39,504 bases of DNA from a virus. Lineage: Duplodnaviria; Caudoviricetes. The notes below the pieces were generated by a model. It had not been told where the DNA came from, did not search any database, and saw nothing but the letters and a program-made list of their open reading frames with translations. Positions within the stretch are counted from its first letter, which is position 1. Every line of letters begins with the position of its first letter. Positions 26,010-39,504 of this stretch are shown piece by piece. The position numbers and the translations under genes were made by a program. The stretch is from positions 1 to 39,504 of the IMG/VR virus record IMGVR_UViG_3300030433_001675, one strand, 5' to 3'.

Positions 26010-26365
26010 CACTTCTTCTTCTTTGCTTTTGTGTTTGCACGATTGATCTTGCGATCCAATTTTCTTCCAATTTTGGCAGACTTCTTTTTAGAAGCTTTTA
26101 CTGCCTTCTCCACGGTCTTGAACTCCCTGCTCATTTCACCCCGCCTGCGAGCAACACGCTTTGCCTGTTTCTCAGATTTGAAGTCTTCACCAGTCTTAGT
26201 GTTGAATGAGGGGACGTTGACGAACTTCTTTCCAGAACGAACTGTGATGCCCCTTCTTGTCTCATATTCGCCGCGCTGGTTGATATAGACCCTTCGCCCA
26301 CCCACCTTGTAAGGAGTGGAGCGTCTCACCGGTTTTTCATATGGGTTTCTATCTTGATACTTCAT
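26009..26365 (-). CDS. highly basic hypothetical protein (118 aa)
   Basis: K/R-rich; ATGA and TGATG coupling. Confidence 0.7.
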   Translation of the reverse strand: MKYQDRNPYEKPVRRSTPYKVGGRRVYINQRGEYETRRGITVRSGKKFVNVPSFNTKTGEDFKSEKQAKRVARRRGEMSREFKTVEKAVKASKKKSAKIGRKLDRKINRANTKAKKKK

Positions 26366-26610
26366 TTCTTTTTCTTTCTTCGCCGGCCACTAGCGGTGAC
26401 GGCGTACTCCACACGAGAGGGTCCGGTCTTGCGAGCAGCAGCTGAACGCTTCTCAGATGCCGTCATCTTGGCCGCGACCTTGGCTGGCCGGCACGCTGGG
26501 TAAGGACGCTTGCCCTTTTCTTTGCCCGAACGTCCGCATTTCTTGCCGGTCTTGATATCCCGCCAATCTTCCTTGAACCACTTTGTCAATCCGCCTTGGG
26601 GCTTAGCCAT
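26362..26610 (-). CDS. basic phage protein (GLTKWFKEDW...CGR...YPACRP; DUF5872-like as recalled)
   Basis: Motif familiar from aquatic phage genomes; coupled at both ends. Confidence 0.75.
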   Translation of the reverse strand: MAKPQGGLTKWFKEDWRDIKTGKKCGRSGKEKGKRPYPACRPAKVAAKMTASEKRSAAARKTGPSRVEYAVTASGRRRKKKK

Positions 26611-27215
26611 CAGACTCTCCTCCTGCCTGTAAAGAAACAGCTAAATGTCACAAGTGGCAAGATCCCAGCCTCAGGAATGGTCGTATACTCAGCTCCCCAA
26701 ATATCAGGAAAAAGGAGCAGGTCTTGACTATCTTCGGTTGTGATCCAAATTGGGACGTCTCCAGTGACGTCGTATTCTTGGAAGGTTATGACAGAGCTTT
26801 CGTAGGAATCGGAGACCAACACGGAGGCGTCGGGCAGGTAGCTACCTACAGGGTAAGCCTGATTGTCGAAGAGATTATGAGTAGGGATGCCTGCACCTTC
26901 GACGAGGCGTGGGAGTTCTTCAGTTACAACATCGCTTGCCTGTGCTTCGGGGCTAAGACTCCCATCCTGATCAATGACGTCCAAGCCCTGGGCGAGGTTG
27001 CCTCCGGGTGTCTCTCGCATGGATGTGATTGCCCCGAGTGACGAGGACAACCCAAGGGCATAGTCCAAAGTCTCTTTGCCGGCGAGCGTAGAAACAACAG
27101 TAAGAGCCAACGTCAAACGCTGGTTCTTGACGCTGATCTCTTTGCATCGGCCCTCACAATCAGAGAGCTTCTGCAATTCTTCAGCCTGTCGCTTCTCGCA
27201 CGCTGGACAAGTCAT
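26610..27215 (-). CDS. putative surface/membrane protein with a PEP-CTERM-like C-terminal sorting signal (201 aa)
   Basis: Ends IPEAG-ILPLVTFSCFFTG-RRRV; start MTCPAC overlaps the upstream stop (ATGA 27212-27215) and the stop overlaps the downstream start (TGATG). Confidence 0.65.
   Translation of the reverse strand: MTCPACEKRQAEELQKLSDCEGRCKEISVKNQRLTLALTVVSTLAGKETLDYALGLSSSLGAITSMRETPGGNLAQGLDVIDQDGSLSPEAQASDVVTEELPRLVEGAGIPTHNLFDNQAYPVGSYLPDASVLVSDSYESSVITFQEYDVTGDVPIWITTEDSQDLLLFPDIWGAEYTTIPEAGILPLVTFSCFFTGRRRV
26724..27041 (+). CDS. conserved phage hypothetical protein nested antisense inside the PEP-CTERM-like gene
   Basis: AAGGAG (26712-26717) lies 6 nt before TTG; LEGYDRAFVG...ATY....IVEEIM.RD..TFDEAWEFFSYNI....FG.KTPI matches a phage family I recall (DGFD.A.IG...Y...EEA.E.F..N....G..TP). 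Confidence 0.6.
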   Translation: MTIFGCDPNWDVSSDVVFLEGYDRAFVGIGDQHGGVGQVATYRVSLIVEEIMSRDACTFDEAWEFFSYNIACLCFGAKTPILINDVQALGEVASGCLSHGCDCPE

Positions 27216-27388
27216 GCTCGGTATCCGCCACCACGCTTCTTGTATGTGCGAACCAGCCACGCATTTGCATACGCAGATGGGTACACATCAAACTTACGCT
27301 TGGCCTCCGCCTTCACCCGGCTGTACAAAGCTGGGTTAGTGGGCTTCGGCCCCGACTTCTTTTTGGCTTTTGCTTTTGGCTTTGCCAT
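27212..27388 (-). CDS. basic 58-aa phage protein (PTNPALYSRVKAEAKRKF.VYPSAYANAWLV..YKKRGGGY; DUF5872-like); below the ORF-track cutoff
   Basis: Translated by hand; TAATG coupling upstream and ATGA coupling downstream; recognisable motif. Confidence 0.8.
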   Translation of the reverse strand: MAKPKAKAKKKSGPKPTNPALYSRVKAEAKRKFDVYPSAYANAWLVRTYKKRGGGYRA

Positions 27389-39174: not shown

Positions 39175-39504
39175 ATGAACCAAATCAACCGCAACATCGA
39201 AGCCGCCACCAAAGCCGTCCGCATCCTTCTTGAGAACCAACAAACCACAGACCTGCCGAGCCGTGTCGATGGTGAAGTCAAGACCAAGATTGGCAAGCGT
39301 CTGGGCGGCGGCTGGTGCAAAGCCAATGGCGAGGAAATCCTCAACCGCATCGAGATCAAGACCAACATCCAAGGCGAGGACTGGGATTATGACCGATGGA
39401 TGCGAGACCTCGACAAGAAATGCTTGCAACTGGCGATGATGTTTGACTGCCAATGCCGCTTCGAGGACTTCGGTCACGGCACTCGCAATCGGCTTGAGGT
39501 CTAC
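39175..39504 (+). CDS. first early gene, 5' part (continues into 1..99; 142 aa in total)
   Basis: ATG follows the recurrent early RBS; 110 open codons to the window end (MNQINRNIEAATK...RNRLEVY); absent from the ORF track because it has no stop before the window end. Confidence 0.8.
   Translation, partial: MNQINRNIEAATKAVRILLENQQTTDLPSRVDGEVKTKIGKRLGGGWCKANGEEILNRIEIKTNIQGEDWDYDRWMRDLDKKCLQLAMMFDCQCRFEDFGHGTRNRLEVY

What the first reader, a model, noticed from the sequence alone, without database searches (positions are those of the whole stretch)
26712..27041. Fully nested antisense gene: a recognisable phage protein encoded on the opposite strand of the PEP-CTERM-like gene
Seen: inside the 201-aa - strand gene, which is translationally coupled at both ends, the + strand carries a 105-codon ORF with a well-spaced AAGGAG-6 nt-TTG start and a TATACT hexamer at 26684-26689. 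It is the only convincing + strand ORF I found in the ~30-kb late arm. Its core (EGYDRAFVG...Y...IM.RD..TFDEAWEFF.YNI...G.KTP) matches my memory of a widespread phage hypothetical family. Inference: either an inverted gene was captured as the variable extracellular linker of the surface protein, or both strands are coding, creating a sense/antisense pair that could be mutually regulated between early and late phases.
Basis: partly seen in the sequence, partly recalled or inferred. Interest (0 to 1): 0.8.

Follow-up and report, generated by a model that had tools for sequence, protein, structure and literature searches.

The report
Backwards gene captured inside phage gene
In this marine phage a small gene of a very widespread family lies backwards, with its own ribosome-binding site and a likely promoter, entirely inside another gene whose close relatives lack it, and related phages keep both reading frames intact, so the overlap likely arose by capture of a ready-made gene rather than by birth of a new one.

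Summary
Confirmed. The + strand ORF (26724-27041) belongs to a huge phage family: phrog_13182, E 7e-17, 2,269 clusters, mostly stand-alone genes. The − strand gene (27215-26610) is also real and occurs in two forms. Short forms (155-167 aa, 22 distinct genes, some in syntenic phages) have an unrelated middle and no antisense gene. Long forms (201-204 aa, 19 genes, many near-copies) all carry the nested ORF codon against codon, with AGGAG-6 nt-TTG and CGTATACTC kept in 19 of 19. Selection separates cleanly: inner dN/dS is 0.18, the outer N-terminus 0.11 and the outer tail motif 0.14. The outer middle is weakly constrained (0.62, interval includes 1), but stops are avoided in both frames. Best reading: an existing gene replaced, in inverted orientation, the predicted-disordered middle of a late gene, and both products are still selected. 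The outer protein fails the PEP-CTERM models and has no classical signal peptide, so 'surface protein' is unproven. Expression, sense/antisense regulation and both functions are untested. Closest precedents are anti-sense homing endonucleases inside inteins and synthetic alternate-frame insertions; here there is no intein and no recognisable nuclease.

The parts
26724..27041 (+). Nested gene, 105 aa, TTG start; member of the widespread phage family phrog_13182 (core residues about 15-86) with a Cys-containing C-terminal extension
   Evidence: dN/dS 0.18; model pLDDT 79; all nine fully kept family columns G21 A25 G28 Y42 A62 E64 N69 G76 P80 present in 10 of 10 nested copies
26712..26717 (+). 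Shine-Dalgarno AAGGAG, 6 nt before TTG
   Evidence: AGGAG-6 nt-TTG in 19 of 19 long-form genes
26682..26690 (+). Conserved CGTATACTC holding the predicted -10 hexamer TATACT, 34 nt before the start codon
   Evidence: outer codons GAG TAT ACG invariant in 19 of 19 rows while neighbouring third positions vary; TATACT absent from 22 of 22 short genes; the other three + strand TATA[AC]T sites of the genome precede SD + ATG at 35-47 nt
26610..27215 (-). Outer gene, 201 aa, long form; overlaps its neighbours at both ends (translational coupling inferred)
27045..27215 (-). Outer N-terminal domain (codons 1-57): CxxC, CxxxC, predicted long helix ending in a moderately hydrophobic stretch; shared by long and short forms
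   Evidence: dN/dS 0.11 [0.06-0.19]
26613..26681 (-). Outer C-terminal tail IPEAG-hydrophobic-RRR, sorting-signal-like, homologous to the tail of the short forms
   Evidence: P181 and R200 invariant in 22 long and short proteins; dN/dS 0.14 [0-0.43] for codons 180-188, 0.44 [0.23-0.92] for 179-200; PEP-CTERM cut-off not met
27212..27388 (-). Upstream small basic gene (DUF5872 N-terminal half), stop overlaps the outer start
   Evidence: conserved in syntenic long- and short-form phages
26362..26610 (-). Downstream small basic gene (DUF5872 C-terminal half, below cut-off), start overlaps the outer stop
   Evidence: lies at +605 in most long-form and +488 in syntenic short-form phages

Best explanation
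This is a nested antisense gene pair with both frames open and conserved in related phages, likely formed when a ready-made gene of the phrog_13182 family replaced, in inverted orientation and in codon-aligned frame, the middle of a late-operon gene. SHOWN: the inner gene has its own family with stand-alone members; the outer gene exists without it; inner amino acids, the outer N-terminus and the outer tail motif are each under purifying selection; stops are avoided in both frames. INFERRED: the outer protein tolerates the swap because its middle is a disordered spacer between an N-terminal helix and a C-terminal anchor-like tail. The outer frame must stay open to make the tail and to keep translational coupling, so it mostly imposes 'no stop' while the inner gene dictates the sequence. 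The inner gene is likely transcribed early by host sigma-70-type RNA polymerase from the TATACT site written over the outer tail codons, and the outer gene late from the long − strand operon, so the two are separated in time. The inner product is most likely a small non-virion accessory protein acting by binding a host or replication protein; this is the weakest step (about 40%). The long allele travels between phage lineages as one cassette.
For: Outer long/short dimorphism. Empty versus filled allele at the same locus with 89-100% identical neighbours, 117 nt shorter. Short-form middle profile does not match long middles (-0.2 to 4.0 bits, near shuffles, at inconsistent places). Family size and stand-alone copies. 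Nested copies form one group (90/90; 96 SH-like) and long forms one group on the N-terminal tree (91/87). dN/dS from 8 path-independent pairs, kappa 3: inner core 0.18 [0.09-0.32], antisense-frame controls outside the ORF 1.08 and 0.88, outer in overlap 0.62 [0.26-1.53]; outer N-terminus 0.11, tail motif 0.14. Stop-making Leu/Ser codons 0 observed against 4.8 and 5.9 expected in the two frames (P 0.016 and 0.003 counted by column; control regions 6 and 1 observed). Outer model disordered over most of 59-181. Promoter geometry equals that of three early-arm TATAAT sites. Same cassette in a phage with a different gene order and a likely integrase.
Against: No transcript, ribosome or peptide evidence (one search had no coverage of the overlap). 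No recognisable -35 and no hit in the consensus promoter scan (0 found). In three other long-form genomes (G016, G017, G019) the nested site is the only TATA[AC]T-SD match, so the 'early promoter' geometry is shown only for the window and G018. The short-form middle carries a conserved LFxxLPxLxP motif, so it was not a free linker, and the swap lost or replaced something. Tree supports are below the starred level, the trees are unrooted, and recombination is evident, so the direction and date of the event are inferred. An open antisense frame is not rare at this GC (5 of 20). In the L165 phage early and late genes appear to lie on the same strand, so 'early strand' is not general. Low pLDDT in the outer middle could also reflect a shallow alignment.
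Confidence: 0.8

Rival explanations
1. Only the inner gene and the first ~60 codons of the outer gene matter; the outer frame stays open merely to avoid polarity on the coupled downstream genes, and its middle and tail are functionless read-through.
For: Outer dN/dS in the overlap is 0.62-0.64 with intervals that include 1. The tail fails PEP-CTERM models. Part of the tail is constrained by the promoter on the other strand.
Against: Tail codons 180-188 show dN/dS 0.14 [0-0.43], and 5 of 6 invariant tail residues use several synonymous codons. The tail aligns with that of the short forms.
Confidence: 0.1
2. The inner gene is a selfish mobile element (like an anti-sense homing endonuclease inside an intein) that drives the long allele through phage populations.
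For: The long allele occurs in unrelated gene contexts. The N-terminus and the insert have discordant histories. The layout matches anti-sense HEN inteins (10.1101/2025.01.02.630785, passages).
Against: No nuclease or intein family hit in Pfam, PHROGs or NCBIfam for either protein. No structural match in PDB (Foldseek no E <= 0.001; best Z 4.0; inconclusive by itself). Two deeply diverged alleles kept under purifying selection argue for long residence rather than a recent sweep.
Confidence: 0.05
3. The long form is ancestral: the outer middle and tail arose by extension or overprinting over a resident antisense gene, and short forms later lost the inner gene; or the two nested alleles were captured independently.
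For: The two nested alleles are very divergent (about 45% protein identity; nucleotide windows down to 0.33), deeper than the N-terminal tree of long forms. The trees are unrooted.
Against: Short forms are far more diverse and share their own middle motif. Both alleles share start, SD, TATACT and position and group together.
Confidence: 0.05

Closest known systems
Inteins with an anti-sense homing endonuclease (LAGLIDADG or VSR-like) in actinobacteriophages and bacteria (bioRxiv 10.1101/2025.01.02.630785; passages read)
   Same: A gene of a family with free-standing members lies fully nested on the opposite strand inside a dispensable, structureless part of a host ORF that must remain open.
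   Different: Here there is no intein: the antisense-encoded residues would stay in the mature outer protein. The inner gene has no recognisable nuclease family or fold, and the event is a replacement of the middle rather than an insertion into a splicing domain.
Synthetic overlapping alternate-frame insertion, OAFI (bioRxiv 10.1101/2024.11.07.622342; passages read)
   Same: [quoted passage not shown]
   Different: OAFI is engineered and same-strand in the passages seen (+3 frame, shared promoter). This case is natural, antisense, has its own predicted promoter, and has evolved to about 45% identity between alleles.
Overprinted overlapping genes of viruses (PMC8227390, passages) and antisense olg1/olg2 of Pseudomonas aeruginosa (PMC8850804, abstract and outline)
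   Same: Fully embedded second ORF under purifying selection with stop-codon depletion; frame -0 overlaps tend to be the longest antisense ones (PMC8903798, passages).
   Different: Those are described as one ancestral plus one de novo frame without remote homologues. Here the embedded gene is the old, widespread one, and both genes have non-overlapping homologues; only the outer middle segment is new sequence.
Out-of-frame remodelled genes, ORgenes, in E. coli (PMC8788219, passages)
   Same: The outer long form is a gene partly built from the alternative frame of another gene; that paper proposes out-of-frame fusion or lateral transfer as a route.
   Different: Here both partners stay intact and selected at one locus, and the empty allele is observed.
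PEP-CTERM / exosortase substrates (PMC1569441, passages; TIGR02595, PF07589)
   Same: C-terminal Pro-containing motif, hydrophobic stretch and basic cluster; Ser/Thr-rich low-homology middle.
   Different: IPEAG rather than PEP; model cut-off not met; no classical signal peptide; Cys-rich N-terminus; phage-encoded.

Membership tests
Fully nested antisense overlapping gene pair | Both frames open over the whole overlap in divergent relatives | tested here: met
   19 of 19 long-form genes; they include near-copies and two deep alleles
Fully nested antisense overlapping gene pair | Purifying selection on the inner protein | tested here: met
   dN/dS 0.18 [0.09-0.32]; controls about 1
Fully nested antisense overlapping gene pair | Selection on the outer frame across the overlap | tested here: met
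   Stop avoidance P 0.016 by column and selected tail; amino-acid constraint inside the overlap is inconclusive (0.62 [0.26-1.53])
Fully nested antisense overlapping gene pair | Transcription and translation of both frames | not testable with these tools
   The two RNA runs found did not cover the overlap
phrog_13182 phage family | Significant profile match and conserved core residues | tested here: met
   E 6.8e-17; 16 of 25 family-consensus columns identical in the window protein; Foldseek viral matches to uncharacterised phage proteins, E down to 1e-7
PEP-CTERM | Score above the TIGR02595/PF07589 cut-off | tested here: not met
   0 of 17 proteins; best 8.7 bits against 16
PEP-CTERM | Motif, hydrophobic helix and basic cluster at the C-terminus | tested here: inconclusive
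   Pattern present (mostly 14-18 residues from Pro to first basic residue), but 19-residue hydropathy is only 1.1-1.9; model shows helix 185-195 at low confidence
PEP-CTERM | N-terminal signal peptide | tested here: inconclusive
   No predictor available; by inspection the first 33 residues are polar and charged, and the hydrophobic stretch (hydropathy 0.9-1.5) starts near residue 34
PEP-CTERM | Host encodes an exosortase | not testable with these tools
Intein with anti-sense homing endonuclease | Intein splicing domain flanking the insert | tested here: not met
   No Pfam, PHROGs or NCBIfam hit for the outer protein
Intein with anti-sense homing endonuclease | Inner product is a nuclease of a known fold | tested here: inconclusive
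   No sequence family hit; no convincing structural match
Classical overprinting (one ancestral, one de novo frame) | One of the two proteins lacks homologues outside the overlap | tested here: not met
   Both have non-overlapping homologues; only the outer middle segment is new

The most novel reading that the evidence does not exclude
A natural 'alternate-frame insertion'. An ordinary, non-selfish, non-spliced gene was captured backwards into the disordered middle of another protein, grew or brought a promoter over the host gene's tail codons, and has since persisted as a two-protein cassette exchanged between phage lineages. It would be a clean case, with the empty allele in hand, of a long overlap formed from two pre-existing genes, and would imply that low-constraint linkers of phage proteins are landing sites for hidden genes that annotation misses.
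Probability: 0.6. Interest if true: 0.85.

Novelty: new variant of a known kind. Interest (0 to 1): 0.72.

Why it matters
Long overlaps are usually explained by overprinting, where one frame is new and has no homologues (PMC8227390). Here both genes have independent, non-overlapping relatives and the before and after alleles are both available. That makes a second route, capture of an existing gene, directly testable, and provides a natural counterpart to engineered gene entanglement. It also shows a blind spot in annotation: only one nested copy (P0029, 101 aa) appeared among the 33 database proteins found with the inner profile, while 20 full-length long outer relatives were called.

Tried and rejected
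Single-sequence word search with the inner protein found nothing; the alignment search did. Structure searches of the inner model gave no function: Foldseek PDB had no E <= 0.001, VIA-align best Z 4.0, PDB sequence search best E 0.044. A missing match does not show a new fold. ESM Atlas gave only unnamed viral clusters for the inner protein and weak fungal hits for a short outer form, recognition below threshold; both disregarded. RNA: two seawater metatranscriptome contig sets shared 7-8% of words and covered only neighbouring genes, so they are uninformative. Consensus promoter scan found 0 sites. No terminator-like hairpin is conserved downstream of the inner gene. TIGR02595 search of the own genome rang nowhere, controls included. 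A donor for the nested gene was not identified: the stand-alone copy about 850 nt upstream of a short form in L025 and the second copy after RusA in G016 do not group with the nested copies. 10 of 11 short-form records searched had no family member, but none is 90% complete and 7 requested loci were not held. Host could not be assigned (the one GTDB hit is a 34-kb contig in an archaeal MAG, which I take for a binned phage contig). Rejected: shadow ORF (selection); outer gene as annotation artefact (short forms and N-terminal selection); homology of the short and long middles (an apparent LP column in alignments A1/A4 is not significant). Literature searches for a description of this family or this overlap found none in the held library; most subscription papers are not covered, and bioRxiv supplements were not seen. 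No complex prediction was run, since no binding claim is made.

Full report
Setting. The window is a whole 39,504-base virus record. It has a + strand early arm (methyltransferase, exonuclease VIII-like, replication initiator, RusA) and a long − strand arm (terminase, portal, major head protein, adaptor, 3,372-aa virion protein). Relatives come from IMG/VR and metagenome contigs, many of them Tara samples. The host is unknown.

The observation. Every stated feature is present: SD 26712-26717, TTG 26724, stop 27041, TATACT 26684-26689, inside a 201-aa − strand ORF that overlaps both neighbours. The frames are codon-aligned. The inner protein hits phrog_13182 at E 6.8e-17 and is the only one of 114 + strand frames of the late arm with a PHROGs hit.

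The inner gene is old. A profile of 14 nested copies finds 2,269 clusters at 50% identity. Stand-alone members include orf94 of Bacillus phage phiNIT1 and 76 of the 80 loci kept from a viral scan. The model is a compact alpha/beta domain (pLDDT 79) matching only uncharacterised phage proteins. Of 60 neighbours of stand-alone copies that I picked by hand, favouring long ones, from 148 representatives of 297 clusters, the best PHROGs hits were: 17 DNA or nucleotide metabolism, 5 head and packaging (mostly terminase), 8 other named, 9 unknown, 21 none. This suggests a non-virion accessory protein and no more.

The outer gene is real and dimorphic. It has 20 full-length relatives at 49-86% identity and 6 shorter ones. 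From fetched loci I obtained 19 long genes (201-204 aa, window included, several near-copies; one row is a truncated copy of another) and 22 distinct short genes (155-167 aa); loci cut by contig ends were left out of these counts. All long genes carry the nested ORF. No short gene has a family match in its antisense frames. Short-form phages L019, L020, L022 and L059 have the same gene order as the window, with 89-100% identical neighbours, and the downstream gene starts 117 nt earlier. The short middles share their own LFxxLPxLxP motif and do not match the long middles beyond shuffle level. The event is therefore a replacement, not a pure insertion.

Selection. I used 8 pairs on non-overlapping tree paths, sites classed by effect in both frames, kappa 3 as estimated. 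Inner core dN/dS is 0.18 [0.09-0.32]; the same antisense frame outside the ORF gives 1.08 and 0.88. Outer dN/dS is 0.11 for codons 2-55, 0.62 [0.26-1.53] in the overlap core (0.44 with kappa 1), 0.14 [0-0.43] for tail codons 180-188 and 0.44 [0.23-0.92] for 179-200. In the overlap core, 26 invariant residues are kept through synonymous change in the inner frame against 6 in the outer; in the N-terminus the count is 4 against 26. Leu and Ser codons that would be a stop on the other strand are absent in both frames (expected 4.8 and 5.9; P 0.016 and 0.003 by column), and present in the flanks. So the inner gene dictates the sequence, and the outer frame has to remain open and deliver a selected tail. 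Caveat: an open antisense frame is found in 5 of 20 stand-alone copies of similar GC. That makes capture easy, but it also means that openness in one genome proves little.

Expression signals. AGGAG-6 nt-TTG and CGTATACTC are kept in 19 of 19 long genes, including three third positions that are synonymous for the outer frame, whereas only 1 of 22 tail codons downstream in the outer frame (179-200) is invariant. The + strand of the genome has four TATA[AC]T hexamers. Three precede early-arm genes at 35-47 nt, and the fourth is this one at 34 nt. G018 shows the same pattern; G016, G017 and G019 have only the nested site. There is no canonical -35, no conserved terminator and no RNA coverage.

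History. Long forms are one side of a branch on a tree of the non-overlapping N-terminus (91/87, not starred; 36 rows after dropping 5 near-duplicates). Nested inner proteins are one group among stand-alone members (90/90). There are two deep alleles (window type and the rest, about 45% protein identity) whose N-termini have been exchanged by recombination, so the arrangement is older than the N-terminal tree implies and its direction rests on the greater diversity of short forms. The long gene also occurs in a phage with another gene order and a likely integrase, sharing little else with the window, so it moves as a cassette. No donor was found.

The outer protein. The model predicts a long N-terminal helix with paired cysteines, a disordered middle and a short C-terminal helix. 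The tail resembles a sorting signal but fails PEP-CTERM models. By the definition in PMC1569441 (passages) a signal peptide is expected, and none is evident. From memory, such VP/IP-x-x-G...RRR tails and a dockerin-like end in a neighbouring gene of L025 recall Phycisphaerales proteins; this is recalled and untested. I call it an anchor-like tail of a probable membrane-associated late protein.

Comparison with what is known. Overprinting assumes one de novo frame (PMC8227390, passages). Anti-sense homing endonucleases in inteins show capture of a free-standing gene into a dispensable region (10.1101/2025.01.02.630785, passages). OAFI builds such pairs synthetically (10.1101/2024.11.07.622342, passages). 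ORgenes propose out-of-frame fusion in theory (PMC8788219, passages). This locus works like those, but is neither an intein nor classical overprinting. Seven searches of the held library found no description of it. An earlier scan note describes antisense genes in linkers of another phage protein, part of which later fell; I did not test it and do not count it as support.

Verdict. A real, well-supported nested antisense pair, most likely formed by inverted gene capture. It is a new variant of a known kind; functions and expression are untested. Interest 0.72.

Noticed in passing
window 1430, 3463, 39122 (+): Three TG-N-TATAAT (extended -10-like) sites, each 35-47 nt before an SD + ATG; two share the leader ACACGCGAGCCCGAGGGGCT-like sequence, also seen in G018. 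The early arm starts at 39175 and continues at position 1, so the record is circularly permuted.
   Followed up: partly
L167:6294-6587 (-), genome G016: A second, divergent, stand-alone member of the inner family ends the early arm directly after the RusA-like gene in a phage that also carries the nested copy.
   Followed up: partly
L025:984-1271 (+): A stand-alone family member about 850 nt upstream of a short-form outer gene, on the same strand; not the sister of the nested copies.
   Followed up: partly
window 27388-27212, 26610-26362, 27570-27388, 26365-26009 (-): A run of very basic small genes; the two flanking the outer gene match the N- and C-terminal halves of DUF5872, so the family is split around it. 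The 60-aa and 118-aa genes are present or absent among close relatives.
   Followed up: no
L025:2591-3634 (+): A 347-aa gene with a signal-peptide-like start and a C-terminal CPxDLNxDG motif (dockerin-like, recalled) follows the short outer gene; homologues lie on small contigs of unnamed bacterial bins.
   Followed up: partly
L165:5873-9843: In this relative the long gene ends the late operon and is followed by a non-coding gap, small early-type genes and a likely tyrosine integrase (judged by eye from motifs); the contig sits in an archaeal MAG, probably mis-binned.
   Followed up: no
window 27041-27215: The N-terminal 45 codons of the outer gene are 96-100% identical to L003 while the insert region is only 33-82% identical, showing a recent recombination between the two alleles.
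   Followed up: yes
L071/L165 inner gene: In this lineage the nested gene ends five codons earlier (101 aa); it is the only nested copy found among the database proteins (P0029).
   Followed up: partly
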